In this document: piece by piece, positions 5,425 through 26,335 of the stretch
Layout of the letters: each line of letters starts with the position of its first letter
Numbering within the stretch: the stretch's first letter is position 1
Source of the DNA: Candidatus Auribacterota bacterium
Lineage (GTDB): Bacteria > Auribacterota > UBA6266
DNA length: 28,168 nt
Assembly: GCA_023136205.1 (NCBI GenBank)
Contig: JAGLRQ010000051.1
Span: 1-28,168 of the forward strand
Reading direction: 5' to 3'
The notes under the pieces: model-generated
What the model saw: only the letters and a program-made list of their open reading frames with translations
The model's database searches: none
Told to the model about the DNA's origin: nothing
Position numbers and translations under genes: made by a program

Positions 5425-5443
5425 TACCAGAGGTGATGGAGCA

Positions 5444-6700: not shown

Positions 6701-6716
6701 GGATACAGGTGATGGG

Positions 6717-12197: not shown

Positions 12198-12200
12198 ATA

Positions 12201-12596
12201 ATGGAAAAGCAATTAAAAGAGTTGAAAAATTTCGGGCTGGGGTTTGGAAGCGTTATGCTTCTTGTGGGAATAATCCGATTGTACTTTAAAGGGGCTCCTT
12301 CCTCATGGATATTTATTTGTGTTGGAATATACGCTCTTTTTTTAGGGCTTCTGTTCCCAAAACTTCTGTTGCCCCTGCATTTTTTGTTAAAGAAAATCCT
12401 TGGGCTTATTATGTACATTTTTACAATTGTTTTTCTCAGTGTTCTATTTTATTTAGTCTTTACTCCAATAGCTTTAATTTTAAAATTAAAAAGACAAGAT
12501 TTTATGGGCAGGAAGATAGACAAAAAAGAAAGTTCTTGCTGGGTGAAAAGGGAACCGTCCGGAACTCTAAAAGAAGACTATTTGAAGCAGTATTAG
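12201..12596 (+). CDS. SxtJ-family small membrane protein
   Basis: 131 aa with 3-4 TM helices. The N-terminal LKELKNFGLGFGSVMLL and C-terminal ...KRQDFMGRKIDKKESSCWVKRE resemble SxtJ-family proteins as I recall them. It starts 3 nt after the carbamoyltransferase stop, the conserved position for SxtJ homologues. Confidence 0.7.
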   Translation: MEKQLKELKNFGLGFGSVMLLVGIIRLYFKGAPSSWIFICVGIYALFLGLLFPKLLLPLHFLLKKILGLIMYIFTIVFLSVLFYLVFTPIALILKLKRQDFMGRKIDKKESSCWVKREPSGTLKEDYLKQY

Positions 12597-12680
12597 TTTT
12601 TAGGCCTGTAAAAATCTGGTGATGTTATATATAATGTATTGTCTGAATGTGTTGTGAAAAGTTTTTGAAGGAGATTATGT

Positions 12681-12839
12681 ATGTCAAAAATAGCGATTCT
12701 TAAAGAACTATGGGAATTTTTAAAGGTAAGGAAAAAATGGTGGCTGCTGCCCATTGTAATAATGCTTGTGTTGTTCTGCGGGGTAATAGTTCTGTCGCAA
12801 AGTGCCGCGATACAAACAGTTATTTACACCTTGTTTTAA
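12681..12839 (+). CDS. DUF5989 / SxtK-like 52-aa single-pass membrane protein (not in supplied ORF track)
   Basis: My own translation is MSKIAILKELWEFLKVRKKWWLLPIVIMLVLFCGVIVLSQSAAIQTVIYTLF*. The RBS GAAGGAG (12667-12673) lies 7 nt before the ATG. The motif ILKELWEFLKVRKKWWL...P...YTLF matches my recollection of the DUF5989 family, which routinely follows carbamoyltransferase-SxtJ pairs. Confidence 0.7.
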   Translation: MSKIAILKELWEFLKVRKKWWLLPIVIMLVLFCGVIVLSQSAAIQTVIYTLF

Positions 12840-12855
12840 ATACTAATAAAGTTAA

Positions 12856-12909
12856 ACGATGTTTTTACGATTCACGATCCACGAAATACGACGTAAGGAG
12901 TCAAAAAAA
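12856..12909 (+). promoter_or_regulatory. ACGA heptad repeat leader plus A8 spacer upstream of the first GT4 gene
   Basis: ACGAT at 12856, then ACGATtc ACGATcc ACGAAat ACGACgt at 12867, 12874, 12881 and 12888 (exact 7-nt spacing). These run straight into the RBS AAGGAG (12895-12900) and an A8 tract (12903-12910) whose last A is the A of the ATG at 12910. Confidence 0.3.
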
Positions 12910-14097
12910 ATGGAAAACATAAGAGTAGCTTTTGTAATAGAGAGTTTTTCCCCTGATACAGGGGGTGGAGAGAATTCCGCGAGGGTGCTTGCGGATAAAT
13001 TGACCGAAAAGGGGTGTAATATTTCTGTTATTTCGAAAAGGTTTGATTCAAAAAATCCCGCCTTAAATCATATAAAAGTTGTCAGTTGTGGTTTTTCAAG
13101 ATTACTTGACAGGATACTGTTTGCTTTGCACACTGCCTGGATAGTCCGGAGCAAGCAAATCAATATTATTTTTTCTTTCGGGAAAAATTTTAGCATGGAT
13201 ATTTACCGGCCGGGAGGTGGTGTGCACGCCGCGTACAAAGCATATAACCGGAGGTCATATCATAGAAAGATTTATAGAATGTGCCAGGCGTTCCGGGACA
13301 TTATTTCTCCCGAACAGTGGTTTCTTTCCTGGCTTGAAAACAAACAATACAGTTCGCGAAGATTGAAAATAGTAATTGCTGTCTCTAACATGGTAAAAAG
13401 GCATATAAGAAAATGGTATAAAATAGACGGTAGAAAAATTGAAGTAATCCATAACGGCGTTGATATAGAAAGGTTTTCTCCGAATAAAAAGGAGAATACA
13501 GGAGCGGTTGTTCGGAGAGAACTGCATCTTTTGGACGAGATAATAATACTTTTTGTCGCGAATAACTTCAGGCTTAAAGGCCTGAGAACTCTCTTGCTGG
13601 CGCTGGCTTCCCTGGAAGCAAGTGTCCGTGAGCCTGTCAGATTGCTTGTGGTTGGAAAGGGCAAGCTAAAGAGATGGAAGCAGTTGGCATTGATATTAGG
13701 TGTGGAGAAGAATGTACTTTTCCTCGGTATGCAGAAAAACATTGAAAGTATTTATAGTGCTTCAGACATTTTTGTACTGCCTTCTTTTTACGATCCCTGC
13801 GCGAATGTATGTCTTGAGGCTCTCGCGTCCGGCCTGCCGGTTATATCCAGTTCTTCTAACGGTTCAAGTGAAATAATAGAAGAGGGTAAACAGGGGTATG
13901 TTATTAAAGATTCCTCTGATTACCTCTCCTTTGCTTCTAAAATGAACTTTTTAATAAAGAACAAACAGACAAGGATTGAAATGGGGGCAAAAGCGAGGGA
14001 GCTTGCCGAAAAATATTCAATAGAAAGCCGGGTAGATATAATAACAAGCTTGATTAAATTTGTGGCCAGCAGTAATGAAGATAATATACCCCGTTAA
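12910..14097 (+). CDS. Glycosyltransferase family 4 (GT-B, RfaG/WaaG-like)
   Basis: The ORF opens at 12859, but ATG 12910 follows the AAGGAG RBS and gives the typical GT4 N-terminus MENIRVAFVIESFSPDTGGGE. The C-terminal half has FVLPSFYDPCANVCLEALASGLPVISS...SEIIEEGKQGYVI (EX7E region). Confidence 0.85.
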   Translation: MENIRVAFVIESFSPDTGGGENSARVLADKLTEKGCNISVISKRFDSKNPALNHIKVVSCGFSRLLDRILFALHTAWIVRSKQINIIFSFGKNFSMDIYRPGGGVHAAYKAYNRRSYHRKIYRMCQAFRDIISPEQWFLSWLENKQYSSRRLKIVIAVSNMVKRHIRKWYKIDGRKIEVIHNGVDIERFSPNKKENTGAVVRRELHLLDEIIILFVANNFRLKGLRTLLLALASLEASVREPVRLLVVGKGKLKRWKQLALILGVEKNVLFLGMQKNIESIYSASDIFVLPSFYDPCANVCLEALASGLPVISSSSNGSSEIIEEGKQGYVIKDSSDYLSFASKMNFLIKNKQTRIEMGAKARELAEKYSIESRVDIITSLIKFVASSNEDNIPR

Positions 14098-15241
14098 TAA
14101 AAGATTTGCCATACAGAGAGCTCATGATGTCCTTGTTATTAAAACATGCCATGCGCTTGCCTCGGCGGGGCATGAAGTAACTCTTATAATGGGCAAAACA
14201 TGTTCTGTAGAGAAACTCCTTTCTCATTATGGCCTTAAACCTGTTCAAAACTTAAAGATAGTTCAGCTCCCGATTTTAAGGAAAAAGTCGGGTTTCGGAG
14301 TCTCGTGGCATTTCATTTTCAACTTTTTTTGTTTAAAGGCTATTAAAGATATTCTAAAGAAGGAAAACCCGGATTTCCTGTACCTTTCCGAACTTAAAAT
14401 GGCACAGTTCCTTTTGAAGAAGAAAAGTGAGATTGATATGCCTTTCGTTTATGAAGTACATGGTTTATATTCCTCTTATCCTTTGGGTGAAAACTATCCC
14501 CGCGCGAATGAAAAAGAAGGCAATGTATTTAATGGTGTGAATGGGATTATAACAACTACGGAGGGTATAAAAAATATAATCAGGGCAACATATGGCATTA
14601 AAAAAGAAATTCAGGTTGTTCCCCTTGCGGCGGATAGCGCGTTCCCTTTAGGGGAAAAAACGAGTGGAAAATTTAAAATTTATTATATCGGACAGCTTTA
14701 TTATGAGCAGGGAGTAGATTTTTTACTTAATGCCGCTCTAAAGCTCGAAAATGCTGAGTTTCATGTCATAGGCGGTAAACCGGATGAGGTGTCTGGATTT
14801 AAGGATAAGGCGCGGAACAATAAACTGGGGGATAAGATTTTTTTCCATGGATTTATTAAACCTTCCAGGATTGATCAGACGGTTAAGGATGCTGACTGTT
14901 TCGTAATTCCATCCAGGAGTACAGGTAAAATGGGTTATGTGGCCCATACTAAATCTTATGAATACCTGCGGTATGGTAAACCTATAATATCATTTGATCT
15001 TCCTTCAATTAGAGAAGTTCTTAGTAACGGATATAATGCTGTTCTGGTTGCTAAAAATGATCCTGAAGCACTTGCCGACGGTATAAAGAAGATTATGACT
15101 GACAGGAGCCTGTATGATAGACTCTCTCAAAATGCTCTTAAAACATTAAAGGGTCATACATGGGAGATGAGAGCTGAAAGATTGGAGAAAGTGTTTAATT
15201 ATATATTGGAAACAAGAAAAAATGGAAATGTTTGTAAATAA
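14075..15241 (+). CDS. Glycosyltransferase family 4-like (GT-B)
   Basis: The ORF opens with TTG at 14060. ATG 14075 gives MKIIYPVNKRFAIQRAHDVLVIKTCHALASAGHEVTLI. The C-terminal half has FHGFIKPSRIDQTVKDADCFVIPSR...SYEYLRYGKPIISFDLPSIREVLSNGYNAVLV, typical of GT4. It overlaps the preceding gene by 23 nt. Confidence 0.78.
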   Translation: MKIIYPVNKRFAIQRAHDVLVIKTCHALASAGHEVTLIMGKTCSVEKLLSHYGLKPVQNLKIVQLPILRKKSGFGVSWHFIFNFFCLKAIKDILKKENPDFLYLSELKMAQFLLKKKSEIDMPFVYEVHGLYSSYPLGENYPRANEKEGNVFNGVNGIITTTEGIKNIIRATYGIKKEIQVVPLAADSAFPLGEKTSGKFKIYYIGQLYYEQGVDFLLNAALKLENAEFHVIGGKPDEVSGFKDKARNNKLGDKIFFHGFIKPSRIDQTVKDADCFVIPSRSTGKMGYVAHTKSYEYLRYGKPIISFDLPSIREVLSNGYNAVLVAKNDPEALADGIKKIMTDRSLYDRLSQNALKTLKGHTWEMRAERLEKVFNYILETRKNGNVCK

Positions 15242-16763
15242 TAAACAGAAAAATATAGGTTGGGATATAGCCCGTTTATTCACACTGGCATTTATTACGA
15301 GAGTTGTAATGCGTCTCTTATTTTTTGTGCCGGCAAAGGATGGGCTAACATTTATTGAAATAGCTAAGCTGTTTAGATCCGGCAATTTTGATAGTGCCCT
15401 TAACTATGAATATCATCCCCTTTATCCATGGCTGATCAGTATTTTTTCGCGGTTTACCGGTGATTTTATAAGTGCCGGCCTTTTGGTTTCAATGGTGTTC
15501 GCGACATTGCTGGTTATTCCGGTTTATATGGTAACTTTCAGGCTTTTCGGGAGAAAAGCGGCAGTACTGGCTTCAATATTCTGTATTTTTCAGCCGTATT
15601 TTTTAAGGTATTCGTCTAATATTCTTTCAGAGTCACTGTATCTTTTCAGTATCACGATGATTTTATGGATGGGGGTTGAGGGGATATTTAGAAAGAGAGC
15701 AAAATACTTTGTTTTATCGTCCCTCTTTGCGCTGTTGGCCTATCTTACCAGGCCGGAAGGACTGGGTGTTTTACTGGTGTTATGTACATTTTTAATCCTT
15801 GTTCCATTAAAAACAATGAGTTTTTTAAAGAGGGCTTCTTATGTTGTGCTGCTGCTGCTGGTTTTTTCTTTACTCGCACTGCCCTATCTTCTTGTAATAA
15901 AAGAAAACCAGGGAGAGTGGCGTTTTACCCAGAAAAGGAGAATTAGCTCTCTTGTGGGCACAAAGATACCATTGCCTGTCTTTGTAAAACCCTCTCCTGA
16001 AAAAGAGGAGGTAGAGAAGGTAAAGGAATATGATGAATATCCTCTCAAAGCTGCTCCTGAAAGGCCTGAGGGAATAACGCTTGTTCTTTACGGCCTGAAA
16101 GATGTTATGAAGAAATTGCTCAAAGGCCTTAGTATACCGCTGGTTATTTTTTCTTTAATAGGTATTTTCCTGCGTAAATCAGTAAAAAGAACGAAAATGG
16201 AGCTAATTCTGGGGTTTTCATTTATCCTTTATTTTCTGGTACTTGTGATGCTTGCAATGCGTTCGTATATTAGCAGCAGGCACATGGCGTCGATAATGAT
16301 TATGGGGTGTATATATTCAGGTGTAGGGGTAGCGGAACTTCCCCGGTTTATGGTTAAGTTTAAAGAAAAATATGTATTGTGGATGGTAATGATCCTTTGC
16401 GTCATTGGCCTTTCAGTAAAAGGGTTTAAACCCATAGGGAAAGATAAACATTCAAGAAAAGTTGTTGGAATATGGATAAAACGTCATTATCCCAGCGAAC
16501 TTATTATGAGTTCAAGGATGTCAAGGATTCCTTTCTATGCTGACGTTGAGCATTTTGATTACACGGATTATAAGAAAAAATATATTCTTATGGAAGCAGG
16601 CAGCAGAAATGTTACGGTAGCGGTTATAAATTTACGGGATAAATCTGAGGCTGATAATGATTTATTAAGTCTTTTAAGTGAGAAAAATTCTAAAGAAGTT
16701 TATCATAAAGAGTTTAATCCTAAGGAAGAAATAGTGGTTTACCAATTGAGGTTAAATGAGTGA
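15222..16763 (+). CDS. GT-C fold membrane glycosyltransferase (family 39/83, ArnT/PMT-like) no. 1
   Basis: 513 aa with about 10+ TM helices. The N-terminal region AKDGLTFIEIAKLF...YEYHPLYPWLISIF is the first periplasmic loop motif of ArnT/PMT_2-type enzymes. There is a soluble C-terminal domain. It overlaps the upstream gene by 20 nt. Confidence 0.75.
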   Translation: MEMFVNNKQKNIGWDIARLFTLAFITRVVMRLLFFVPAKDGLTFIEIAKLFRSGNFDSALNYEYHPLYPWLISIFSRFTGDFISAGLLVSMVFATLLVIPVYMVTFRLFGRKAAVLASIFCIFQPYFLRYSSNILSESLYLFSITMILWMGVEGIFRKRAKYFVLSSLFALLAYLTRPEGLGVLLVLCTFLILVPLKTMSFLKRASYVVLLLLVFSLLALPYLLVIKENQGEWRFTQKRRISSLVGTKIPLPVFVKPSPEKEEVEKVKEYDEYPLKAAPERPEGITLVLYGLKDVMKKLLKGLSIPLVIFSLIGIFLRKSVKRTKMELILGFSFILYFLVLVMLAMRSYISSRHMASIMIMGCIYSGVGVAELPRFMVKFKEKYVLWMVMILCVIGLSVKGFKPIGKDKHSRKVVGIWIKRHYPSELIMSSRMSRIPFYADVEHFDYTDYKKKYILMEAGSRNVTVAVINLRDKSEADNDLLSLLSEKNSKEVYHKEFNPKEEIVVYQLRLNE

Positions 16764-17641
16764 ATATTGTTCTATCTGACAGAAGAACCTGTCCTTATTG
16801 CGGTTCAGGCAGGTGGACTGTTAATTATAGCTTCAGGTATTATAAAGTGTGTGCCTGCAATTCCTGTTCGGGAGTTTTTCATAACCCGTATTTTTCAGAG
16901 AAAGAAGCGGTGAGATTTTTTTCTGATTCGGCCGGGGTTATCAATCCCAATGCCGAATCATATTATGACAGGAGTTTTGTGGAAAAACATGCCGGACATA
17001 CATTTAAAGTTTTTGACTGGCTGTTGGATTACCTGGAATCTCAAAGTGAAGGCAGAAGATTTTTAGACGTCGGTTTTGGCATGGGGTTTTTACTTGAAAA
17101 GGCGGGAAAAAGAGGATGGGACACTCTGGGTATAGATTTTTCGGATGAATACTATGATTACGCGAAAAACAAGTTGAATCTAAATGTACTAAAGACAGAT
17201 TTAGAAAATTTCGAATCTTTCGATAAAGAATTTGATGTAATTGTAATGTGGGATATAATAGAACATCTTGATGCTCCCGCGGACTCGGTAAAAAAAATAT
17301 ACGCGATGTTAAAGAAAGGCGGCCTTTTGGCGGTTGCTACTCCCAATGAGAAAAGCCTTATTGCCGATATGGCAAAGTTTATTTATAAAATTACTTTTGG
17401 GAAAATAAAAGAACCTTTAAAGTCTGTTTATGTTTTAGAACACCCTCTTTTCTTTGATGCGTTGTCCCTTGGCAGATTACTTGAAAAATGTGGTTTTAAT
17501 GTGATACTTTCTAAAAAGGATGAAACCGACCTGTGCAGGCTTAATTTGCGCGGGTTGAAGAATGTTACCGTGCGCCTTATTTTTAAGATTGCGCGTTTTA
17601 TAGGCAGGCAGAACAGAATAATTATGCTGGCAAGGAAATGA
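16760..17641 (+). CDS. Class I SAM-dependent methyltransferase with N-terminal 4-Cys zinc ribbon
   Basis: CPYCGS...x...CNSCSG at the N-terminus. SAM motif I is FLDVGFGMGFLLE, followed by post-I GIDFS and motif II VIVMWDIIEHL. The GTG start shares GTGA with the upstream stop (16760-16763). Confidence 0.85.
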   Translation: MNIVLSDRRTCPYCGSGRWTVNYSFRYYKVCACNSCSGVFHNPYFSEKEAVRFFSDSAGVINPNAESYYDRSFVEKHAGHTFKVFDWLLDYLESQSEGRRFLDVGFGMGFLLEKAGKRGWDTLGIDFSDEYYDYAKNKLNLNVLKTDLENFESFDKEFDVIVMWDIIEHLDAPADSVKKIYAMLKKGGLLAVATPNEKSLIADMAKFIYKITFGKIKEPLKSVYVLEHPLFFDALSLGRLLEKCGFNVILSKKDETDLCRLNLRGLKNVTVRLIFKIARFIGRQNRIIMLARK

Positions 17642-19149
17642 AGAATAAAAAGATAATTATTTTATTGGTTATATTGCTTGTAGGGTTTTTCGCCAGAATT
17701 GGACCGGTGAACAAACCGCTTCTTGGTAATTTTTCTTCATACCAGGCCGCTACCGCGATTATTGGGCGATTTATTGCCCGGGAAGGGCCTGAGGCTTTGC
17801 TGTATCCAAAAACAAATTTTCTTATATACGGACAACCGGCACTGCATATGCTTTATGTTCCGGGCGCGGCTTTTGCGGGGGGTATGCTCTGGAAAGTATT
17901 TAGTTTCTCTCTTGATTTTTGGGGAAGGTTTCAGGCTTCGTTTTTTACGATGCTTTCAGCTCTTTTGATTTATCTTATTATCCGCGGGTACTACGGTGAA
18001 AAAACAGGGCTTTTAAGCTGTTTTATTTTTAATGTTTTTCCGCTTTCTTTTGTTTATGGACAGAGTTTTATGAATGAGGCCTTCGCGTTTTTCTGTGTTA
18101 TCTGCTCGTTCTGGATATTATCCAATTTTAAGATAACTATGCGGTCTATTCTCTTTTCCGGGATTTTTGCGGCCGCATCGTTTTTGATGAGGATTCATTT
18201 TCTATGTGTTCTTCCCGCGCTGGTTTTCGTTTTGTGGCAGAGATCCGGGAAAAACAAGTTTTCAAATACGGCCGTTTTTATTATAGCCGTTTTTATTCCC
18301 GTTATATCCTGGTATTTACACACCTATAATGTTGCTTCTTCGATGGACAGCAATATCACAAGTATTTTCGCGCAAAAAGGGAAGCACTACGGTTCCTTTC
18401 CGCACCCTTTGCTTTTGAATATTGAGTTTTATAAATATGTAATTGATAGTTTGGGTGGCATATGTTTAAATCCGGCAGGTTTTGTTTTTATGATTATCGG
18501 GTTAGCCATTTTCAGGCCTGAAAATAAAATAGAATGGTTTATAATACTCTGGCTTTTGGGTTCTTTGGGTATAGTAGTACTTCTTCCACAGAAAATTTAT
18601 GACCACAACTTTTATTTTTATCCCATACTTTTTCCCGCGGCTTTGTTGATTTCAAATGTTGCTATTAAAATATTAAAAGGCAAGGGAACCGCGGTTAAGG
18701 TATTTCTTGGAGTCGTTTTTATCGCGATTTCCGCGAGGTATTTTATCAATCCGGCATTTAGTTATCCTGCCGAAATGTCTACGGTTCTTGACGCGGGCCG
18801 CTTTATCAGGGAAAACACTCCTGCCGATGCCAGGATAATCGTTTCTCCTGATGTTTACGATCAGCTTTATTACTGTGACAGGTATGGGTGGACATTCGAC
18901 GTTAAAGATGACAGCAGAAGCGGAAACTATTTTGATGTTGAATGGCTGAAATTGCTTATTAACTGCAGAATTAGAGATGGCGCTGATTTTTATGTGAGCG
19001 CTGATTTAAGGTCAATTAATAATTTGCCGGAATTTGTGGAATATCTGGATAAAAATTATGAAAATATATCTCCTGATGAAAGATTTGTTGTATATGTGCT
19101 GACAGAACCTGCCTGTTCGGCAGGCAGGAAGGAGAAACTGAATGAATAA
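17638..19149 (+). CDS. GT-C fold membrane glycosyltransferase (ArnT-like) no. 2
   Basis: 503-aa polytopic protein with about 11 TM helices and a soluble C-terminal domain, the architecture of ArnT/PMT_2-type enzymes. Sequence motifs are weaker than in no. 1. ATGA start/stop overlap at 17638-17641. The C-terminal tail EPACSAGRKEKLNE is encoded by the 21-nt palindrome. Confidence 0.65.
   Translation: MKNKKIIILLVILLVGFFARIGPVNKPLLGNFSSYQAATAIIGRFIAREGPEALLYPKTNFLIYGQPALHMLYVPGAAFAGGMLWKVFSFSLDFWGRFQASFFTMLSALLIYLIIRGYYGEKTGLLSCFIFNVFPLSFVYGQSFMNEAFAFFCVICSFWILSNFKITMRSILFSGIFAAASFLMRIHFLCVLPALVFVLWQRSGKNKFSNTAVFIIAVFIPVISWYLHTYNVASSMDSNITSIFAQKGKHYGSFPHPLLLNIEFYKYVIDSLGGICLNPAGFVFMIIGLAIFRPENKIEWFIILWLLGSLGIVVLLPQKIYDHNFYFYPILFPAALLISNVAIKILKGKGTAVKVFLGVVFIAISARYFINPAFSYPAEMSTVLDAGRFIRENTPADARIIVSPDVYDQLYYCDRYGWTFDVKDDSRSGNYFDVEWLKLLINCRIRDGADFYVSADLRSINNLPEFVEYLDKNYENISPDERFVVYVLTEPACSAGRKEKLNE
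19108..19128. repeat. GC-rich perfect palindrome CCTGCCTG-TTCGG-CAGGCAGG (copy 1)
   Basis: An 8-bp perfect stem with a 5-nt loop, inside the last codons of the GT-C gene and abutting the RBS AAGGAG (19129-19134) of the next gene. It is strikingly GC-rich against the AT-rich background. Confidence 0.9.
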
Positions 19150-19891
19150 AGCTCTTGTTGTAATTCCAACGTATAATGAAAAGAAAAACATAGTTAAGGT
19201 TTGTGAAAAAATTATGGCTCTTGAAACCTGCCTGTTCCTGCCCGTCCGGCAGGCGGGCGGCAGGCAGGCAGGATTTGATGTTTTGATTGTGGATGACAAT
19301 TCCCCTGATGGGACAGGTGAAATAGCTGATAATCTTTCTTCGTTGCATCCGGGAATACATGTTTTACATAGAAAGGAAAAAGGCGGTATAGGAAGCGCCT
19401 ACATTGAGGGATTTAAATGGGCTCTTGCTAAAGGGTACGATTACTTTTTTGAAATGGATGCTGACCTTTCACACAATCCTGACGACTTGGTTCGTTTGTT
19501 AAATGAGATGGATAGTTGTGATTTGTGCATTGGTTCGAGGTATATAGAGGGAGGCGGCGTTTTAAATTGGCCCATCTGGCGTATGTTGCTCAGCAAATTT
19601 GCCGCGAGATATTACACCAGAATTATTACGCGCATGCCTGTTCATGACGCGACAGCGGGTTTCAAGTGCTTTCGGAGAAGTGTTCTTGAATCTATTAACC
19701 TGGATGAAATACATTCAGAAGGATATTCCTTTCAGATTGAAATGCATTACAGGGCCTGGAAAAAGGGTTTTAAGATAAAGGAAATGCCAATAGTATTTAC
19801 TGACCGTCAGCATGGGCTTTCAAAGATGTCAAAGAAAGTGATATTCGAGGCGATTTTTATGGTCTGGAAAATAAAGTTTACTGTTAAATGA
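19142..19891 (+). CDS. Polyprenol-phosphate hexosyltransferase (GT2; Ppm1/DPM1/ArnC-like)
   Basis: VVIPTYNEKKNI ... VLIVDDNSPDGTGEI ... EMDADLSHNPDDL ... GSRYIEGGG ... DATAGFKCFRR ... GYSFQIEM are the canonical DPM1/Ppm1 motifs. It carries an extra ~15 aa (TCLFLPVRQAGGRQAG) between TYNE and VDD, encoded by the nested palindrome. Confidence 0.9.
   Translation: MNKALVVIPTYNEKKNIVKVCEKIMALETCLFLPVRQAGGRQAGFDVLIVDDNSPDGTGEIADNLSSLHPGIHVLHRKEKGGIGSAYIEGFKWALAKGYDYFFEMDADLSHNPDDLVRLLNEMDSCDLCIGSRYIEGGGVLNWPIWRMLLSKFAARYYTRIITRMPVHDATAGFKCFRRSVLESINLDEIHSEGYSFQIEMHYRAWKKGFKIKEMPIVFTDRQHGLSKMSKKVIFEAIFMVWKIKFTVK
19227..19272. repeat. Nested double copy of the same palindrome (copy 2 with a variant copy inserted at its centre)
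   Basis: The sequence reads CCTGCCTGTT [CCTGCCCGTC CGGCAGGCGGG] CGGCAGGCAGG CAGG. The outer halves equal the two halves of copy 1. The bracketed 21 nt differ from copy 1 at 3 positions. The whole element lies in frame inside the GT2 gene. Confidence 0.85.
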
Positions 19892-21387
19892 AAATCAAGA
19901 AAGCATTTCTTCTTTTTCCACCTTGCCCGATTCCCAAAATGTTTCCCAAAAGGGTTCAAATGCCCCTTGGGATAGCTTACCTTACATCAGTTCTCTTGAG
20001 CAAAAATATCGAAGTTGAAGTTCTTGACAGTCTTATTGAAGGATGGGATGAGGTTGTTGAAATTGATGAGCATAATGTTCAATTCGGGCTTAGGCCTGTT
20101 GAAATAGCTGAAAGGGTAAAAACCTTTTTGCCTGATATTATAGGTATATCCTGCATGTTCAGCATACAGGCAAAGGTTGTTTCTGAGATTGCGAAAGAAA
20201 TTAAAAAGAAACTTCCCTCTGTTAAGATTTTTGTTGGCGGCGCTCATCCTTCTTCAATGCCTGAAGACGCTGTTAGTGATGATAATATAGACTTCGCCAT
20301 TATTGGGGAAGGGGAAGAGACGGTTATTAGTCTTATTAGATGTTTGGGCGAGAACAAATCTCCCAGCGACATTGACGGGATTTGTTATAGGGAAGAAAAT
20401 GGTTCAATCGTTTTGAATCCAAAAACGCGTTATATCGGAAATCTGGATAATCTTTCGTTTCCCAACTGGGATTTTTTGCCGGTAGAAAAGTATTTTAGAT
20501 TGAACAGGCCCCACGGGACTATTACGAGAAACAACAGGATAATTCCTGTAGTTACGTCAAGAGGTTGTCCCGCAAAATGTGTTTTTTGTTCGATTCATCC
20601 AATATGGGGACGGAAATATCGGGCGCGCTCGCCTGAAAATGTTGTTAACGAAATTGAGGAGCTTGTTAAAAAGTACAACGTTCAGGAAATTCATATTGAA
20701 GATGACAATATGACGCTTGATAAAAGAAGAGCGGAGAAAATATGCGATCTTTTAATTGCGCGGCAAATTAAAGTTTCTTTTACTGCTCCGAACGGCCTTG
20801 CGGTCTGGGCTCTGGATGATGGACTTTTAAGAAAGCTCAAAAATGCGGGGTTTTACAGGCTTACGCTCGCGGTCGAGTCGGGAAGCCAAAGCACCTTGAC
20901 TAAGATAATCCATAAGCCCTTGAAGCTCGAAAAAGTTTTTGAGGTTATTGATTCTGCCAATAAAATTGGTTTTGACATAGATGTATTTTTTGTCGTTGGA
21001 TTTCCGGGAGAAACACCTGAAGAGATGCAAAAGACTTTTGACCTTGGGAAAAAGCTTGATGTATCAAGCGTAAAATATTTTGTAGCTACTCCGTATCCGG
21101 GCAGCGAGCTTTTGGATATTGCCCGAAAGGAAAAACTGATACCCGATAATTTTGACCCCAGGGATATAGGCATAAATGCGGTTAAGGGAAACATTACAAC
21201 TGAGTATTTTACACCGGAAGGACTTGAGAAAAAGGTACTCAAAGAAACAATGGCAACGCAGATTGCCCTTCTGAAGAAACATCCGTTAAAATACACATTT
21301 AACATTTTCAGAAATTATGTCCTTAAAGATCCCGGTGCTACGTTATCTTTTGCCTGTAAGACGCTGAAGAGCAAGTTTTTACGGTAA
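19888..21387 (+). CDS. B12-binding (class B) radical SAM enzyme
   Basis: The N-terminal cobalamin-binding Rossmann-like domain has MPLGIAYLTSVLL...PDIIGISCMFS...KIFVGGAHPS. It is followed by the radical SAM cluster motif TSRGCPAKCVFCS (CxxxCxxC, codons 20566-20589). ATGA overlap with the GT2 gene. Confidence 0.88.
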   Translation: MKIKKAFLLFPPCPIPKMFPKRVQMPLGIAYLTSVLLSKNIEVEVLDSLIEGWDEVVEIDEHNVQFGLRPVEIAERVKTFLPDIIGISCMFSIQAKVVSEIAKEIKKKLPSVKIFVGGAHPSSMPEDAVSDDNIDFAIIGEGEETVISLIRCLGENKSPSDIDGICYREENGSIVLNPKTRYIGNLDNLSFPNWDFLPVEKYFRLNRPHGTITRNNRIIPVVTSRGCPAKCVFCSIHPIWGRKYRARSPENVVNEIEELVKKYNVQEIHIEDDNMTLDKRRAEKICDLLIARQIKVSFTAPNGLAVWALDDGLLRKLKNAGFYRLTLAVESGSQSTLTKIIHKPLKLEKVFEVIDSANKIGFDIDVFFVVGFPGETPEEMQKTFDLGKKLDVSSVKYFVATPYPGSELLDIARKEKLIPDNFDPRDIGINAVKGNITTEYFTPEGLEKKVLKETMATQIALLKKHPLKYTFNIFRNYVLKDPGATLSFACKTLKSKFLR

Positions 21388-21555: not shown

Positions 21556-21840
21556 ATGGAAATTAGGGAAAATGAGGTCTATACTGCTGAGGAAGCCCAA
21601 AAACTTCTGAAAGTCAGTTCCAGCACACTTATGAGAATGATTAAAAAAGGCTTGCTGAGAACTGGACGTGCGGGGAAGCAATACCGCATTTTGGGCAAAG
21701 AAATATTAAGAACTGTTTCACCAAAGCTTGAAGACAGGGTTGGTATTCTTTACAATAGGGGGCGGCATTGGGTTCATGAGGGAATTGATAAATCGCGGAA
21801 AAACCAGGAAACGAGAGGTGAAGAAGATGTTAAGAAATGA
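21556..21840 (+). CDS. Excisionase-family (MerR-superfamily) helix-turn-helix DNA-binding protein
   Basis: YTAEEAQKLLKVSSSTLMRMIKKGLLRTGRAGKQYRILGKEIL matches the 'DNA binding domain, excisionase family' pattern (HTH followed by ...YRI...). RBS GGAGA lies 7 nt upstream. The 3' end overlaps the pseB start by 14 nt. Confidence 0.78.
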   Translation: MEIRENEVYTAEEAQKLLKVSSSTLMRMIKKGLLRTGRAGKQYRILGKEILRTVSPKLEDRVGILYNRGRHWVHEGIDKSRKNQETRGEEDVKK

Positions 21841-22819
21841 TCTTTTCAAAAATAAGAGTGTTCTTGTAACAGGGGGAACGGGTTCGTTCGGCAAGAAAAT
21901 CACGGCGAAACTGCTTAAGGAACACAGCCCGAAAAAGGTAATAATCTATTCGAGAGATGAGCTTAAGCAGTTTGAAATGAGGCATATGCCCGAATTTAAA
22001 GACGTTGAAAGGCTTAGATATTTTATTGGAGATGTCCGTGATTATCCAAGGCTTAAAATGGCATTTCACGGGGTCGATTATGTGATTCACGCGGCCGCGT
22101 TAAAACAGGTTCCCGCGTGCGAGTATAACCCTTTCGAAGCGGTAAAAACCAATGTTTTAGGCGCGGAAAATATTATTACTGCCGCTATAGAAAATAATGT
22201 TAAAAAGGTAATAGCTCTCAGTACCGATAAAGCGGCAAATCCCGTAAATCTTTATGGCGCTACGAAGCTTTGTTCGGACAAACTTTTTATTTCGGGGAAT
22301 GCCTATGCCGCGGGTGAAACCACTCGGTTTAGTGTTGTTAGATACGGGAATGTGGTCGGTTCCCGGGGGAGTGTAATACCGCTGTTTAAGAAATTAAAAA
22401 ACACAGGGGCACTGCCTATTACGGATGAGAGGATGACGAGGTTTTGGATAACTCTGGACCAGACGGCGGACTTTGTTATTAAGTGTTTTGACAGAATGTG
22501 CGGAGGGGAATTGTTTGTTCCCAAAATTCCCAGCATGAAAATTGTAGACCTCGCGAAAGCTATTGTTCCCGGATGCGAATTTGAGTACATTGGAATCCGC
22601 CCGGGCGAGAAACTTCATGAAATCCTGATAACAAGGGATGATGCGAGGAGAACAGTTGACACTGAAGATATGTATGTTGTGGAACCCGATTTTGAATGGT
22701 GGGGAAATATAGAAAGCCATGTCCGGGGAAAAAAGGTTTCCGAAGATTTTGTTTACAGCAGCGATACCAATCCTGAATGGCTTACGGTTAAAGAACTAAA
22801 AAGCATGGTAGAAGAATGA
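21827..22819 (+). CDS. pseB: UDP-N-acetylglucosamine 4,6-dehydratase (inverting), PseB/FlaA1
   Basis: From ATG 21827 (RBS GAGGTG upstream) the protein reads MLRNDLFKNKSVLVTGGTGSFGKK...IIYSRDELKQFEM...FIGDVRD...IHAAALKQVPACEYNPFEAVKTNVLGA...ALSTDKAANPVNLYGATKLCSDKLF...FSVVRYGNVVGSRGSVIPLF...ITDERMTRFWITLD...GGELFVPKIPSMKIVDLAKA. This is near-colinear with H. pylori/C. jejuni PseB as I recall them. The ORF-track start at 21728 is an upstream in-frame extension. Confidence 0.9.
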   Translation: MLRNDLFKNKSVLVTGGTGSFGKKITAKLLKEHSPKKVIIYSRDELKQFEMRHMPEFKDVERLRYFIGDVRDYPRLKMAFHGVDYVIHAAALKQVPACEYNPFEAVKTNVLGAENIITAAIENNVKKVIALSTDKAANPVNLYGATKLCSDKLFISGNAYAAGETTRFSVVRYGNVVGSRGSVIPLFKKLKNTGALPITDERMTRFWITLDQTADFVIKCFDRMCGGELFVPKIPSMKIVDLAKAIVPGCEFEYIGIRPGEKLHEILITRDDARRTVDTEDMYVVEPDFEWWGNIESHVRGKKVSEDFVYSSDTNPEWLTVKELKSMVEE

Positions 22820-23979
22820 AGATTATTCCTTACGGCAAACAGGATATTGATAAGAGCGACATTGCTGAAGTAGTAAAAATACTTAAGTCTGATTTTATTA
22901 CACAGGGCACTGCCGTAAAGAAGTTTGAGGAGAAACTCGCGGGTTATTGCGGGGCTAAACATGCGGTAGCTGTGTCAAATGGAACTGCGGCTCTGCATAT
23001 TGCCTGTCTTGCTGCCGGCCTGACAAGATCGGATGAAGCCATAACAACACCTGTAACATTTCTATCCACGGCAAATTCTGTTTTATATACGGGCGCAAGG
23101 CCGGTTTTTGCGGATATAGATTACGAAACATTGAATATTAAACCGGAAGAAGTAAAAAAGAGAATCACAAAAAAAACAAAGGTGATTTTGCCTGTTCATT
23201 TCGCGGGGCTGCCCTGTGATATGAGAGAAATCTTTAAAATAGCGAAAGACAGAAATATAAGTGTTATAGAAGATGGCTGTCATTCTCTGGGTGCCGAATA
23301 TAAAGACAGGGGGAAATGGATTAAGGTTGGCAGCTGCGGGCATTCGGATATGACAGTGTTCAGTTTTCATCCTGTAAAACATATTACTACGGGTGAAGGC
23401 GGTGCAATTACCACGAATAACAAGAAATTATATGAAAAATTGATGGCATTAAGAACCCATGGTGTTTATAAAACTTCCTCTATGATGAAGAAGCATGGAT
23501 TATGGTATTACGAAATGAGAGAATTGGGTTTTAACTACAGGATAACTGATTTTCAGTGCGCGTTAGGCCTTTCTCAGCTTAAAAAATTAGAAGATTTCCT
23601 TAAAAAGAGAAGGATAATAGCAAATATATATAATGAAGCTTTTAAGAATATTGACGGTATTGACATTACTCCGGTGGATAAAAATAAAGGACACGCGTAC
23701 CATTTGTATATACTTAAAATAGATTTTAAAAAGTTTAAAACTACCAGGCAGAATTTTGTTTTAAAACTAAAAAAAGAAGGTATTTTAACGCAGGTGCATT
23801 ATATTCCCATTTATCGCCAGCCCTATTACGCGAAAAGGTATCCTCGTAAAGTTGAAAATTTTCCTATGGCTGAAAAATATTATAAAAAAGCGGTATCCAT
23901 ACCGATGTATTCCGGGATGAGCGGTAAGGAAATTAAAAAAGTGGTTGCCGTGATTAAGAATTTATTGTTAGGCAGTTAA
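22816..23979 (+). CDS. pseC: UDP-4-amino-4,6-dideoxy-N-acetyl-beta-L-altrosamine transaminase (DegT family), PseC
   Basis: IPYGKQDIDKSDIAEVVKILKSDFITQG at the N-terminus and the PLP-lysine motif SFHPVKHITTGEGG are characteristic of PseC. ATGA overlap with pseB. Confidence 0.85.
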   Translation: MKIIPYGKQDIDKSDIAEVVKILKSDFITQGTAVKKFEEKLAGYCGAKHAVAVSNGTAALHIACLAAGLTRSDEAITTPVTFLSTANSVLYTGARPVFADIDYETLNIKPEEVKKRITKKTKVILPVHFAGLPCDMREIFKIAKDRNISVIEDGCHSLGAEYKDRGKWIKVGSCGHSDMTVFSFHPVKHITTGEGGAITTNNKKLYEKLMALRTHGVYKTSSMMKKHGLWYYEMRELGFNYRITDFQCALGLSQLKKLEDFLKKRRIIANIYNEAFKNIDGIDITPVDKNKGHAYHLYILKIDFKKFKTTRQNFVLKLKKEGILTQVHYIPIYRQPYYAKRYPRKVENFPMAEKYYKKAVSIPMYSGMSGKEIKKVVAVIKNLLLGS

Positions 23980-24762: not shown

Positions 24763-24777
24763 AGAGGAGGCAGATAT

Positions 24778-26323: not shown

Positions 26324-26335
26324 CAGGAGAAAGAA

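What the first reader, a model, noticed from the sequence alone, without database searches (positions are those of the whole stretch)
15222..21387. Non-canonical polyprenyl-phosphate-sugar module: GT-C / Zn-ribbon methyltransferase / GT-C / Ppm1-ArnC-like GT2 / B12-radical SAM, all translationally coupled
Seen in sequence: five genes are joined by start/stop overlaps (GTGA at 16760-16763, ATGA at 17638-17641, 8 nt at 19142-19149, ATGA at 19888-19891). They are themselves overlapped with two upstream GT4 genes (14075/14097, 15222/15241). Established knowledge: a DPM1/ArnC-type GT2 loads a sugar on polyprenyl phosphate at the cytoplasmic face, and GT-C enzymes transfer it at the periplasmic face. 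Known pairings decorate lipid A (ArnC/ArnT with L-Ara4N, Bordetella LgmA/LgmB with GlcN, Francisella FlmF/FlmK with GalN) or proteins (actinobacterial Ppm1/Pmt). Here the composition differs in several ways. There are two dissimilar GT-C paralogues sharing one lipid-sugar synthase. A SAM methyltransferase is sandwiched between them and a cobalamin radical SAM enzyme sits at the end. No deformylase/deacetylase or small flippase subunits are visible. Inference: this is a periplasmic, lipid-carrier-dependent glycosylation system, on lipid A/core or on envelope proteins, that adds O/N-methylation and possibly C-methylation. The adjacency to waaA, lpxK, lpxL and waaF favours an LPS target. I cannot match the architecture to a described system.
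Basis: partly seen in the sequence, partly recalled or inferred. Interest (0 to 1): 0.7.

Follow-up and report, generated by a model that had tools for sequence, protein, structure and literature searches.

The report
Lipid-linked sugar module with methylation enzymes
An uncultivated bacterium's LPS gene cluster holds a familiar kit for adding a lipid-carried sugar to the cell surface from outside the membrane, extended by two methylation-type enzymes (one a vitamin-B12 radical enzyme) that have not been described in such kits and probably modify the sugar while it is still on its lipid carrier.

Summary
Five co-directional genes (15222-21387) overlap by 4, 4, 8 and 4 nt and are coupled to two upstream GT4 genes. 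They encode GT-C / Zn-ribbon SAM methyltransferase (MT) / GT-C / GT2 / B12-radical SAM (rSAM), in an LPS-core operon of a Candidatus Aureabacteria MAG.

The GT2 is a transmembrane-less dolichol-phosphate-mannose-synthase (DPMS) type enzyme (5mlz E 2.7e-34; ArnC about 1e-4). Both GT-Cs model confidently as GT-C folds but belong to no characterised clade.

The gene set is conserved. A 58%-identity relative has the same order. A third lineage deleted the rSAM and left a 5' stub. The components reassort in Omnitrophota and unclassified MAGs.

Two links are new. Every rSAM ortholog at 48% identity or more, in six lineages, has a DPMS-like GT2 immediately upstream; about 75 more distant homologs have none. 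One Omnitrophota locus fuses GT2, a GtrA/DPMS membrane domain and the MT into one protein, followed by the rSAM.

Best reading: a three-component-type periplasmic glycosylation system for LPS whose polyprenyl-P-hexose donor is methylated before export. This is inferred, not shown. Two GT-Cs sharing one synthase is not new (Rgt system). GT-C2 lacks the canonical catalytic Asp. It is a new variant of a known kind, of moderate interest.

The parts
12910..14097 (+). GT4 glycosyltransferase (cytoplasmic, nucleotide-sugar dependent); first gene of the overlapping gene string
   Evidence: Pfam Glycos_transf_1 E 2.4e-34 and Glyco_transf_4. Start 12910 has a TAAGGAG Shine-Dalgarno sequence and matches the independent gene call. 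It overlaps the next gene by 23 nt.
14075..15241 (+). Second GT4 glycosyltransferase, overlapping GT-C1 by 20 nt
   Evidence: Pfam Glycos_transf_1 E 4.9e-30. Conserved upstream of GT-C1 in L006 and L007.
15222..16763 (+). GT-C1: polytopic GT-C-fold glycosyltransferase with the canonical first-loop Asp (D40), E137, invariant R177/E179, and a C-terminal soluble domain inferred to be periplasmic
   Evidence: PMT_2 E 2.3e-10. AF2 pLDDT 85, pTM 0.85. Foldseek hits to STT3, ArnT, ALG12 and PglB at E 4e-9 to 1e-5, with ArnT 5f15 TM 0.63/0.60. D40 conserved in 28 of 29 sequences and aligned to the ArnT 'DE' motif. No NCBIfam hit.
16760..17641 (+). Soluble class I SAM methyltransferase with an N-terminal 4-Cys Zn-ribbon
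   Evidence: Methyltransf_23 E 1.5e-21. No TM segment. Cysteines conserved in orthologs. Homologous domain fused to GT2 plus GtrA_DPMS_TM in L094.
17638..19149 (+). GT-C2: GT-C-fold membrane protein of a distinct family (138 representatives at E<=1e-30) that lacks the canonical first-loop Asp (Y35-Q36 instead) but keeps E147, R97, K319, Y326 and the YYxxRxGW motif
   Evidence: PMT_2 E 4.3e-11. AF2 pLDDT 90, pTM 0.90. Foldseek hits to STT3, ArnT and ALG12. hhalign to the GT-C1 family 99.8%, E 2e-27. Residue census. Family size.
19142..19891 (+). DPMS/Ppm1-type GT2 without transmembrane helices: predicted polyprenyl-phosphate hexose (probably mannose) synthase. Carries a genome-specific 14-aa insertion (residues ~31-44).
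   Evidence: PDB best hit P. furiosus DPMS 5mlz, E 2.7e-34 over residues 3-244; ArnC about 1e-4. EMDADLSHNP motif. No TM segment. Orthologs 59-71% identical sit next to the rSAM in L009 and L092.
19888..21387 (+). Class B (cobalamin-binding) radical SAM enzyme, cytoplasmic; an orthologous subgroup that is always paired with the DPMS-like GT2
   Evidence: B12-binding E 3.5e-20 and Radical_SAM E 1.1e-26. C227/C231/C234 invariant. Best NCBIfam NF038361 at 277 bits, cut-off 575. Best PDB hit 9ccb, a glutamine C-methyltransferase, E 4e-18. Synteny threshold.

Best explanation
This is a three-component-type, lipid-carrier-dependent periplasmic glycosylation module embedded in an LPS core operon. Its novelty is that the lipid-linked donor is probably methylated before use. 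Proposed steps: (1) the TM-less DPMS-type GT2 transfers a hexose, most likely mannose from GDP-Man, to polyprenyl phosphate at the cytoplasmic face. The homology is shown; the sugar identity is inferred. (2) While the sugar is still on the lipid and facing the cytoplasm, the Zn-ribbon class I methyltransferase O-methylates it. The B12-radical SAM enzyme, where present, modifies an unactivated carbon, most likely by C-methylation. This step is inferred from gene fusion and strict synteny. (3) The modified polyprenyl-P-sugar is flipped by an unidentified component. (4) GT-C1, which has a canonical catalytic Asp, transfers the sugar to the acceptor on the periplasmic side. GT-C2 either transfers it to a second site or acts as a partner. 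The acceptor is most likely the lipid A/inner-core region built by the adjacent WaaA, WaaF and GT4 enzymes. The rSAM step is an optional decoration, because one lineage has deleted it.
For: GT2 is DPMS-like: 5mlz E 2.7e-34 across the whole catalytic domain, DADLSH motif, ArnC only 23% identity. Both GT-Cs have the GT-C fold in high-confidence models. GT-C1 has a conserved first-loop Asp aligned to that of ArnT. LPS context: waaA, lpxK, lpxL, heptosyltransferase II above cut-off and two GT4s in one overlapping gene string, conserved in L006. In Omnitrophota L094 the module sits beside GT9 x2, Wzy_C, ManC and the same carbamoyltransferase-SxtJ set. GT2-MT link: the L094 601-aa protein is GT2 (6-169) + GtrA_DPMS_TM (244-364) + methyltransferase (404-555), and its parts match the window's GT2 (E 4e-32) and MT (E 5.5e-6). 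GT2 followed by MT is also seen next to GT-C2 homologs in L089 and L090. GT2-rSAM link: all six lineages whose rSAM scores at least about 530 bits (the window's own locus L001-L004, L006, L092, L093, L094, L009) have a DPMS-like GT2 within 124 nt upstream. None of about 75 loci below 490 bits has one. The MT and rSAM have no TM segments, so they are inferred to be cytoplasmic. Precedent for cytoplasmic remodelling of a polyprenyl-P-monosaccharide before export: the ORF13 epimerase and DprE1/E2 (PMC11127046). rSAM dispensability: a deletion stub in L007.
Against: There is no biochemical evidence, and every organism involved is uncultivated. No flippase (GtrA, SMR, MATE) is encoded in the window. 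The sugar specificity of GT2 cannot be read from homology, and SDR epimerase/dehydratase genes near several loci allow other sugars. The wider rSAM family (35-45% identity) lies in glycan clusters without DPMS-like GT2, so the family as a whole does not need a lipid-linked substrate. The nearest named relatives of the rSAM include non-methylases (BchE, HpnJ, AprD4). GT-C2 lacks the canonical catalytic Asp, so 'two transferases for two sites' may be wrong. Fusion and synteny show functional association, not the substrate. The acceptor (lipid A, core, O-chain or protein) is not determined. No LpxE/LpxF-type phosphatase lies in the window.
Confidence: 0.45

Rival explanations
1. Same lipid-carrier glycosylation module, but the MT and rSAM do not touch the lipid-linked donor. 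They modify a nucleotide sugar upstream of GT2, or the nascent core oligosaccharide on the cytoplasmic face, or the neighbouring pseudaminic-acid pathway. They are only co-transcribed with the GT2/GT-C genes.
For: Homologs of the rSAM at 35-45% identity sit in glycan clusters with GT4s, SDR epimerases and PseC-like aminotransferases and without a DPMS-like GT2. Methyltransf_23-type MTs are common in polysaccharide clusters. A PseB/PseC/CMP-transferase cluster lies just downstream in the window, L006, L089 and L090.
Against: The sharp synteny threshold: a GT2 is immediately upstream of every rSAM ortholog at 48% identity or more, usually with overlapping start/stop codons. The GT2-GtrA_TM-MT single-polypeptide fusion places the MT at the membrane beside the synthase active site. 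The Pse cluster is a separate unit behind a 168-nt gap and its own HTH gene.
Confidence: 0.25
2. The rSAM is not a methyltransferase. It carries out a different radical reaction on the sugar, such as ring contraction (as HpnJ and OxsB do), dehydration or deoxygenation (as AprD4 does), or epimerisation. The class I MT would then be the only methylating enzyme.
For: NCBIfam relatives include BchE (170 bits) and HpnJ (169 bits). PDB relatives include AprD4 (E 1e-14) and OxsB. No named family cut-off is reached.
Against: The best NCBIfam hit (a P-methyltransferase family, 277 bits) and the best PDB hit (glutamine C-methyltransferase 9ccb, E 4e-18) are both methylases. From established knowledge, most characterised class B enzymes are methylases.
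Confidence: 0.25
3. GT-C2 is not a transferase. It would be a non-catalytic GT-C-fold partner: a membrane anchor for the TM-less GT2 (as DPM3 is for DPM1, or the membrane domain of Ppm1), a donor-handling or flipping subunit, or the inactive half of a heteromer with GT-C1 (compare Pmt1-Pmt2).
For: The canonical first-loop Asp is replaced by Tyr/Lys/Arg in 144 of 144 family members. The GT-C2 gene directly precedes and overlaps the GT2 gene in the window, L006, L007, L089 and L090. No flippase or GT2 anchor is encoded. GT-C2 homologs almost always co-occur with another GT-C.
Against: There is strong conservation of residues in the membrane domain and the C-terminal soluble domain: E/D147 in 144 of 144, plus R97, K319, Y326, Y412 and R415. 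E147 aligns with an acidic position shared with GT-C1 and ArnT, which fits an active site using a different base. An orphan homolog exists without partners (L091).
Confidence: 0.2
4. The acceptor is not LPS. It could be envelope proteins (bacterial Pmt-like O-mannosylation) or another envelope polymer.
For: Both GT-Cs hit only the PMT_2 Pfam family. The synthase is DPMS/Ppm1-like, as in the actinobacterial Ppm1/Pmt pairing. Distant GT-C1/GT-C2 relatives occur in generic polysaccharide clusters.
Against: There is no PF02366 PMT hit and no MIR domain in the window proteins. The profile match to yeast Pmt1 is only E 0.15. The genes overlap in one string with the core GT4 genes, which lie downstream of waaF, lpxL and lpxK on the same strand; this is conserved in L006 and mirrored in L094 by GT9/Wzy_C.
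Confidence: 0.15

Closest known systems
Three-component periplasmic glycosylation systems (GtrA/GtrB/Gtr*; Citrobacter ORF15/ORF14/ORF12 with auxiliary epimerase ORF13; PMC11127046)
   Same: A polyprenyl-P-monosaccharide synthase plus GT-C transferase(s) decorating an LPS glycan from the periplasmic side. Auxiliary cytoplasmic enzymes can remodel the lipid-linked donor before export. Elaborate versions with several GT-Cs exist.
   Different: No GtrA, SMR or MATE flippase gene here. The synthase is DPMS-type without a TM domain, unlike GtrB or a PRPP-dependent synthase. The auxiliary enzymes are a SAM methyltransferase and a B12-radical SAM enzyme, where the known systems use epimerases. The GT-Cs are not GT136 or Gtr* members.
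Rhizobial/Aquifex Rgt system (RgtE bactoprenyl-P-GalA synthase with RgtD, RgtF and RgtA-C GT-C transferases; PMC7663294)
   Same: One GT2 lipid-sugar synthase feeds several dissimilar PMT_2-type GT-C enzymes that act on lipid A or inner core. The genes can be clustered with lipid A genes.
   Different: The synthase here resembles DPMS, which suggests mannose, and no UDP-GalA pathway is evident. No LpxE/LpxF phosphatases lie in the window. Rgt has no methyltransferase or radical SAM partner. Sequence membership in Rgt clades was not tested.
ArnC/ArnT (with ArnA, B, D, E, F) L-Ara4N lipid A modification
   Same: GT2 plus GT-C logic. The donor is modified on the lipid (ArnD deformylation). The target is LPS. 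ArnT is the best size-matched structural neighbour of both GT-Cs (TM about 0.6).
   Different: GT2 is 23% identical to ArnC and scores 32 bits against a cut-off of 529. The GT-C profiles match E. coli ArnT only marginally (E 1e-3 and 6e-5, N-terminal third). No ArnA, B, D, E or F equivalents are present.
DPMS / actinobacterial Ppm1 with Pmt or PimE-type GT-C mannosyltransferases
   Same: The catalytic domain and DADLSH motif of the synthase. A TM-less synthase needs a membrane partner, as with human DPM1-DPM3 and mycobacterial Ppm1 D2-D1 (own knowledge). GT-C enzymes consume polyprenyl-P-Man.
   Different: Gram-negative LPS-core context. The GT-Cs lack the PMT/MIR architecture. Methylation enzymes are added.
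Class B radical SAM sugar C-methyltransferases (GenK, GenD1, MoeK5) and the Haloferax AglP methyltransferase acting on a dolichol-phosphate-linked glycan (all from my own knowledge, not tested here)
   Same: B12-rSAM methylation of unactivated sugar carbons. MoeK5 and AglP act on lipid-linked saccharides.
   Different: Those are antibiotic-pathway or archaeal N-glycan enzymes. No significant specific similarity was shown here. None is paired with a DPMS-type synthase and GT-C in LPS biosynthesis.

Membership tests
Three-component periplasmic glycosylation system | Polyprenyl-phosphate monosaccharide synthase | tested here: met
   GT2 matches DPMS 5mlz at E 2.7e-34 over the full catalytic domain. 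The best NCBIfam hits are all polyprenyl-P glycosyltransferases (PpgS, AglJ, ArnC), though below their cut-offs.
Three-component periplasmic glycosylation system | Dedicated flippase (GtrA, SMR or MATE family) | tested here: not met
   No such Pfam domain in any window ORF. A GtrA_DPMS_TM domain is present only in the L094 fusion protein. The 4-TM SxtJ-like protein at 12201-12596 travels with the carbamoyltransferase.
Three-component periplasmic glycosylation system | GT-C fold transferase | tested here: met
   AF2 models at pLDDT 85-90. Foldseek hits to STT3, PglB, ArnT, ALG12 and AftA at E 1e-9 to 1e-4.
GT-C glycosyltransferases (catalytic competence) | Conserved Asp/Glu at the start of the first extracytoplasmic loop | tested here: met
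   GT-C1: D40 in 28 of 29 homologs, aligned to the ArnT 'DE' motif.
GT-C glycosyltransferases (catalytic competence), GT-C2 | Conserved Asp/Glu at the start of the first extracytoplasmic loop | tested here: not met
   GT-C2: the equivalent position is Y35 (Y82/K37/R16 of 144, never D or E), followed by Q36. A second acidic site, E147, is conserved in 144 of 144.
ArnC/ArnT pathway | Orthology to ArnT and ArnC, and presence of ArnA/B/D/E/F | tested here: not met
   No NCBIfam ArnT hit for either GT-C. ArnC model scores 32 bits against a cut-off of 529. hhalign to E. coli ArnT gives probability 21% and 66%. BLASTP to ArnC gives 23% identity. No Arn accessory genes are present.
DPMS/Ppm1 polyprenyl-phosphate mannose synthases | GT2 catalytic domain with DAD metal site and interface helices | tested here: met
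   Alignment to 5mlz residues 24-246 includes the MDADL(Q/S)H motif.
DPMS/Ppm1 polyprenyl-phosphate mannose synthases | GDP-mannose specificity | not testable with these tools
   Only indirect evidence: DPMS is by far the closest characterised relative, and a ManC gene lies in the related locus L094.
Rgt lipid A/core GalA system | One bactoprenyl-P-sugar synthase serving several GT-C transferases | tested here: met
   One GT2 and two GT-Cs in one operon. This is an architectural resemblance only.
Rgt lipid A/core GalA system | Sequence membership in the RgtA-F/RgtE clades and a GalA donor | not tested
The GT2 is closest to DPMS.
Protein O-mannosyltransferases (GT39 PMT) | PF02366 PMT domain with luminal MIR domain | tested here: not met
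   Only PMT_2 is hit and no MIR domain is found. The GT-C1 profile against yeast Pmt1 gives E 0.15.
Class B (cobalamin-dependent) radical SAM enzymes | N-terminal B12-binding domain plus a CxxxCxxC radical SAM core | tested here: met
   PF02310 at 72.5 bits (cut-off 32.1) and PF04055 at 94.4 bits. C227, C231 and C234 are invariant in 22 homologs.
Named B12-rSAM subfamilies (Sden_1168 P-methylase, BchE, HpnJ, HpnR, QCMT and others) | Score above the NCBIfam equivalog cut-off | tested here: not met
   Best is NF038361 at 277 bits against 575; BchE 170 against 481; HpnJ 169 against 578.

The most novel reading that the evidence does not exclude
The class I methyltransferase and a dedicated B12-radical SAM subfamily act directly on polyprenyl-phosphate-hexose at the cytoplasmic face, producing an O- and C-methylated lipid-linked donor. 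This would be the first radical SAM chemistry, and the first methylation, described on a polyprenyl-P-monosaccharide. GT-C2, a family of a few hundred clusters that has lost the universal GT-C catalytic Asp, would act as the synthase's membrane partner or donor-handling subunit and not as a conventional transferase.
Probability: 0.25. Interest if true: 0.7.

Novelty: new variant of a known kind. Interest (0 to 1): 0.45.

Why it matters
If the inference holds, lipid-linked monosaccharide donors can be chemically diversified by methylation, including radical C-methylation, before export. That would extend the recently recognised idea that auxiliary enzymes remodel such donors, for which only epimerases, deformylases and deacetylases are known. 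It would assign a first function to part of a large, unnamed B12-radical SAM family (more than 2000 hits) found in surface-glycan clusters of Omnitrophota, Planctomycetota, Elusimicrobia, CPR bacteria and DPANN and other archaea. It would also flag a GT-C family without the canonical catalytic Asp, which bears on how GT-C enzymes catalyse transfer. In practical terms it offers parts for glycoengineering methylated sugars onto LPS. The case is limited because all carriers are uncultivated and every family involved is individually well known.

Tried and rejected
(1) ArnC/ArnT identity: rejected.

(2) P-methyltransferase or phosphonate chemistry, suggested by the best NCBIfam hit (Sden_1168 family): the score is below cut-off, no PEP-mutase or phosphonate gene lies in the window, and no literature exists on the family.

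(3) A relocated rSAM ortholog in L007's nonulosonic-acid cluster: rejected. It is only 27% identical, and a deletion stub of the true ortholog remains next to the GT2.

(4) The whole rSAM family being GT2/GT-C-linked: rejected. Only orthologs at about 48% identity or more are.

(5) A lipid-linked nonulosonic acid donor, suggested by the Pse/NulO cluster adjacency in the window, L006, L089 and L090: not pursued. The GT2 is DPMS-like, and the Pse genes form a separate unit behind an HTH gene. Co-location may simply reflect the same surface glycan.

(6) Sequence searches of GT-C1 and GT-C2 against the PDB, single sequence and profile: nothing useful (E >= 0.003).

(7) Promoter and terminator scans: no enrichment over shuffles, uninformative.

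(8) L010, the only high-scoring rSAM without an upstream GT2: the contig ends 46 nt after the gene, so it is uninformative.

(9) Distant GT-C1 homologs (L095, L096) and a Rhodopirellula GT-C2 homolog (L091): no DPMS-like partner, so the pairing is not universal for these GT-C families.

(10) Literature searches for B12-rSAM with polyprenyl, O-antigen or LPS: no relevant paper in the held library.

(11) Model coordinates could not be inspected, so active-site geometry was inferred only from alignments and secondary-structure order.

Full report
OBSERVATION. The window is a single-strand gene string from a Candidatus Aureabacteria (Auribacterota) metagenome-assembled genome. The GT-C2 protein is found identically on ENA, Logan and NCBI contigs, including GCA_030639325.1, and NCBI names it 'MAG: glycosyltransferase family 39 protein [Candidatus Aureabacteria bacterium]'. 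The two upstream GT4 genes overlap by 23 and 20 nt (starts 12910 or 12859, and 14075). Pfam confirms every domain call above gathering thresholds. The left flank holds waaA, a PTS-EIIA/CitMHS insert, lpxK, lpxL, heptosyltransferase II (230 bits against a cut-off of 135), a carbamoyltransferase, an SxtJ-like protein and a DUF5989 protein. The right flank, after a 168-nt gap and an HTH_17 gene, holds PseB and PseC (both above equivalog cut-offs), a cytidylyltransferase, a GNAT, and so on. No deacetylase/deformylase and no GtrA, SMR or MATE flippase domain is present.

THE PARTS.
- GT2 (249 aa) has no transmembrane segment. Its closest solved relative by far is Pyrococcus dolichol-phosphate mannose synthase (5mlz, E 2.7e-34). 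The alignment covers the catalytic domain and interface helices and stops where the DPMS four-helix membrane domain begins. It carries the DPM1-type EMDADLSHNP motif. ArnC is distant: PDB E about 1e-4, 23% identity to E. coli ArnC, and an NCBIfam ArnC score of 32 bits against a cut-off of 529. So it is 'DPMS/Ppm1-like', not 'ArnC-like'.
- GT-C1 and GT-C2 hit only PMT_2 in Pfam and nothing in NCBIfam or, by sequence, the PDB. AlphaFold models built on 29- and 25-sequence alignments are confident (pLDDT 85 and 90, pTM 0.85 and 0.90). Foldseek returns only GT-C enzymes: STT3, AglB, PglB, ArnT, ALG12, ALG9, DPY19, AftA and Pmt4, at E 1e-9 to 1e-4. ArnT is the best size-matched hit (TM about 0.6).
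- The two GT-C families are homologous to each other over their full length (hhalign 99.8%, E 2e-27), although the two proteins share only 26% identity over 118 residues by BLAST. They match E. coli ArnT only marginally.
- GT-C1 keeps the canonical first-loop Asp (D40, 28 of 29), aligned to the ArnT 'DE', plus E137 and an invariant R177/E179.
- GT-C2 does not keep it. Both hhalign mappings put ArnT D-E and GT-C1 D40-G41 onto GT-C2 Y35-Q36. In 144 representatives of the GT-C2 family this position is Tyr/Lys/Arg and never acidic. E/D147 (144 of 144), R97, K319, Y326, Y412 and R415 are nearly invariant. An exhaustive search finds 138 representatives of this family at E<=1e-30.
- The MT is a generic soluble class I enzyme with a conserved 4-Cys N-terminal ribbon.
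- The last gene is a class B radical SAM enzyme: a B12-binding domain plus an invariant C227-x3-C231-x2-C234. It reaches no named subfamily cut-off. The best is the 'Sden_1168 P-methyltransferase' model at 277 bits against 575, with BchE and HpnJ at about 170 bits. The closest structure is the glutamine C-methyltransferase QCMT/MgmA (9ccb, E 4e-18), followed by AprD4.

CONSERVATION.
- L006, an Aureabacteria relative with GT-C2 58% and rSAM 71% identical, has the same five-gene order and the same flanks from the CitMHS transporter to the Pse genes.
- L007 (54% identical) has GT4-GT4-GT-C1-MT-GT-C2-GT2 but no rSAM. The about 45 nt after the GT2 stop still encode MKNRKVFLLFSCAPI, a stub of the rSAM N-terminus in the same ATGA overlap, and then diverge. 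The B12-rSAM 8 kb downstream in that locus is a 27%-identical paralog. So the five-gene state is ancestral in this clade and the rSAM is dispensable.
- Outside the phylum the components reassort. Omnitrophica L008 has PMT-type GT-C, GT2, rSAM, a GT-C2 homolog, a YfhO-like protein, MT and GT2. L089 and L090 have GT-C, a YfhO-like protein, a GT-C2 homolog, GT2 (244 aa) and MT, followed by a NeuB/PseB-type nonulosonic-acid cluster. L009 has a polytopic membrane protein, GT2 (59% identical), rSAM (49%) and MT. L092 has GT2 (71%), rSAM (69%), a second rSAM and a PMT_2 GT-C. L093 has GT2 (63%), rSAM (51%) and a PMT GT-C.

TWO NEW LINKS.
First, I scanned one genome per species with an rSAM family profile and fetched 80 loci, then scored all ORFs against the window proteins and my GT-C profiles. 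Together with the loci fetched by exact protein look-up, every lineage whose rSAM scores at least about 530 bits (48% identity or more) has a DPMS-like GT2 within 124 nt upstream. There are six independent lineages, and the only exception is L010, a 4.7-kb contig that ends right after the gene. None of about 75 loci below 490 bits has such a GT2. Those more distant homologs lie in generic glycan clusters in Omnitrophota, Planctomycetota, Desulfobacterota, Chloroflexota, CPR and DPANN, Bathyarchaeia and Methanoperedens archaea, with epimerases, GT4s, aminotransferases, carbamoyltransferases and tandem B12-rSAM paralogs. The family is large (2077 hits at E<=1e-20) and unnamed.

Second, in Omnitrophota locus L094 the gene directly upstream of the rSAM (48% identical) encodes a single 601-aa protein. 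It comprises GT2 (residues 6-169), a GtrA/DPMS transmembrane domain (244-364) and a methyltransferase (404-555). The ends match the window's GT2 (E 4e-32) and MT (E 5.5e-6). That locus also holds carbamoyltransferase-SxtJ, DUF2079, two GT9 heptosyltransferases, Wzy_C and ManC, so it has an LPS-core context with a GDP-mannose supply. If the fused membrane domain has four helices like the DPMS domain it matches, the MT would sit on the cytoplasmic side next to the synthase.

INTERPRETATION. Shown: the domain and fold identities, the operon structure, the conservation pattern, the fusion, and the absence of the catalytic Asp in GT-C2. Inferred: (i) GT2 makes polyprenyl-P-hexose, probably mannose. 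(ii) The MT and the rSAM act on that lipid-linked sugar before export, the rSAM most likely as a C-methylase. (iii) GT-C1, and perhaps GT-C2, transfer the sugar periplasmically to lipid A/inner core. The general scheme is the known 'three-component' logic, in which auxiliary cytoplasmic enzymes remodel the lipid-linked donor. Examples are ORF13 acting on undP-Ribf and DprE1/E2 (PMC11127046), and ArnD and NaxD from my own knowledge. Several GT-Cs sharing one synthase is the Rgt paradigm, with rgtD, rgtF and rgtE (PMC7663294). The parts not described are the methyltransferase and the B12-radical SAM as the auxiliary enzymes, and a GT-C partner without the canonical Asp. Searches of the held literature found no paper linking B12-rSAM enzymes with polyprenyl-linked sugars, O-antigen or LPS. 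A 2026 review of B12-rSAM enzymes mentions no glycan substrates.

RIVALS. The MT and rSAM could act on a nucleotide sugar or on the core itself. The wider family context allows this, but the synteny threshold and the fusion argue against it. The rSAM could do non-methylating chemistry, given its HpnJ, BchE and AprD4 relatives. GT-C2 could be a non-catalytic anchor or partner for the TM-less GT2, or one half of a heteromer with GT-C1. The acceptor could be protein instead of LPS. None of these can be settled computationally.

VERDICT. This is a new variant of a known kind: a lipid-carrier periplasmic glycosylation module with methylation-type auxiliary enzymes. It is conserved in Aureabacteria, and its components are linked across several candidate phyla. 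Interest is moderate (0.45). It offers concrete, testable and previously undescribed enzyme associations, but every family is individually ordinary, the chemistry is inferred, and all carriers are uncultivated.

Noticed in passing
window 19108-19128 and 19227-19272: GC-rich palindromes (CCTGCC...GGCAGG) lie inside coding DNA: 3 pattern matches against 0.03 expected. The second is a 42-nt in-frame insertion adding 14 residues (LFLPVRQAGGRQAG-like) to the GT2, and it is absent from the orthologs in L006, L007 and L009. The first lies at the 3' end of GT-C2, just before the GT2 start. It may be a small mobile hairpin element or a regulatory hairpin around the GT-C2/GT2 junction.
   Followed up: partly
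window 17638-19149 (GT-C2); family P0200-P0346: A GT-C family (138 cluster representatives at E<=1e-30) in which the otherwise universal first-loop catalytic Asp is replaced by Tyr/Lys/Arg, while a second acidic residue (E147) is invariant. Members almost always sit beside another GT-C gene.
   Followed up: partly
L007 6582-6731: A deletion remnant of the rSAM gene: the first ~15 codons are retained in the same ATGA overlap with the GT2 stop, and the rest is lost. The lineage keeps the other four genes.
   Followed up: yes
L094 6179-7984: A single 601-aa protein fusing a DPMS-like GT2, a GtrA/DPMS transmembrane domain and a class I methyltransferase, directly upstream of an rSAM ortholog.
   Followed up: yes
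window 10353-12839; L094 1232-3629; L054: A carbamoyltransferase (NodU/CmcH type), a 4-TM SxtJ-like protein and a ~52-aa DUF5989 protein travel together next to LPS-core/glycan genes in three phyla. This suggests a membrane-tethered O-carbamoylation step on the same glycan. The function of the two small membrane proteins is unknown.
   Followed up: no
window 21556-21840; L006, L007, L093: A small HTH_17 (excisionase/MerR-like) gene is conserved between the module and the PseB gene, which it overlaps by 14 nt. It is preceded by a 168-nt intergenic region, the only sizeable gap after the 262-nt one at 12597-12858. It is likely a dedicated regulator of the pseudaminic-acid cluster.
   Followed up: no
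window 4519-7181; L006 1-2061: PTS-EIIA-CBS, CitMHS-family transporter and a second PTS-EIIA gene are inserted between waaA and lpxK in the same orientation, and this is conserved in the 58%-identity relative. It is an odd set of companions for lipid A genes.
   Followed up: no
L015, L029, L065, L082, L011, L092: Tandem arrays of two to six B12-radical SAM paralogs occur inside glycan clusters of Planctomycetota, Omnitrophota and other MAGs. This points to extensive uncharacterised radical chemistry on surface sugars.
   Followed up: no
L008 8125-11049; L092 865-4183 (minus strand): A recurring trio of Zn-ribbon methyltransferase, GT2 and a flavin amine-oxidase-like protein lies near the GT-C/rSAM genes. 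It may be another donor-modifying sub-module.
   Followed up: no
window 21827-27622 and beyond (L001 to 21512): The pseudaminic-acid cluster contains extra enzymes: a GFO/IDH/MocA oxidoreductase, a second DegT-type aminotransferase and, further on, a formyltransferase. These suggest a modified nonulosonic acid, not plain Pse5Ac7Ac.
   Followed up: no
window 418-2103: A 561-aa protein with an N-terminal hydrophobic segment and no Pfam domain, with only a weak sub-threshold TIGR03790 match (27.7 bits against 67). Function unknown.
   Followed up: no
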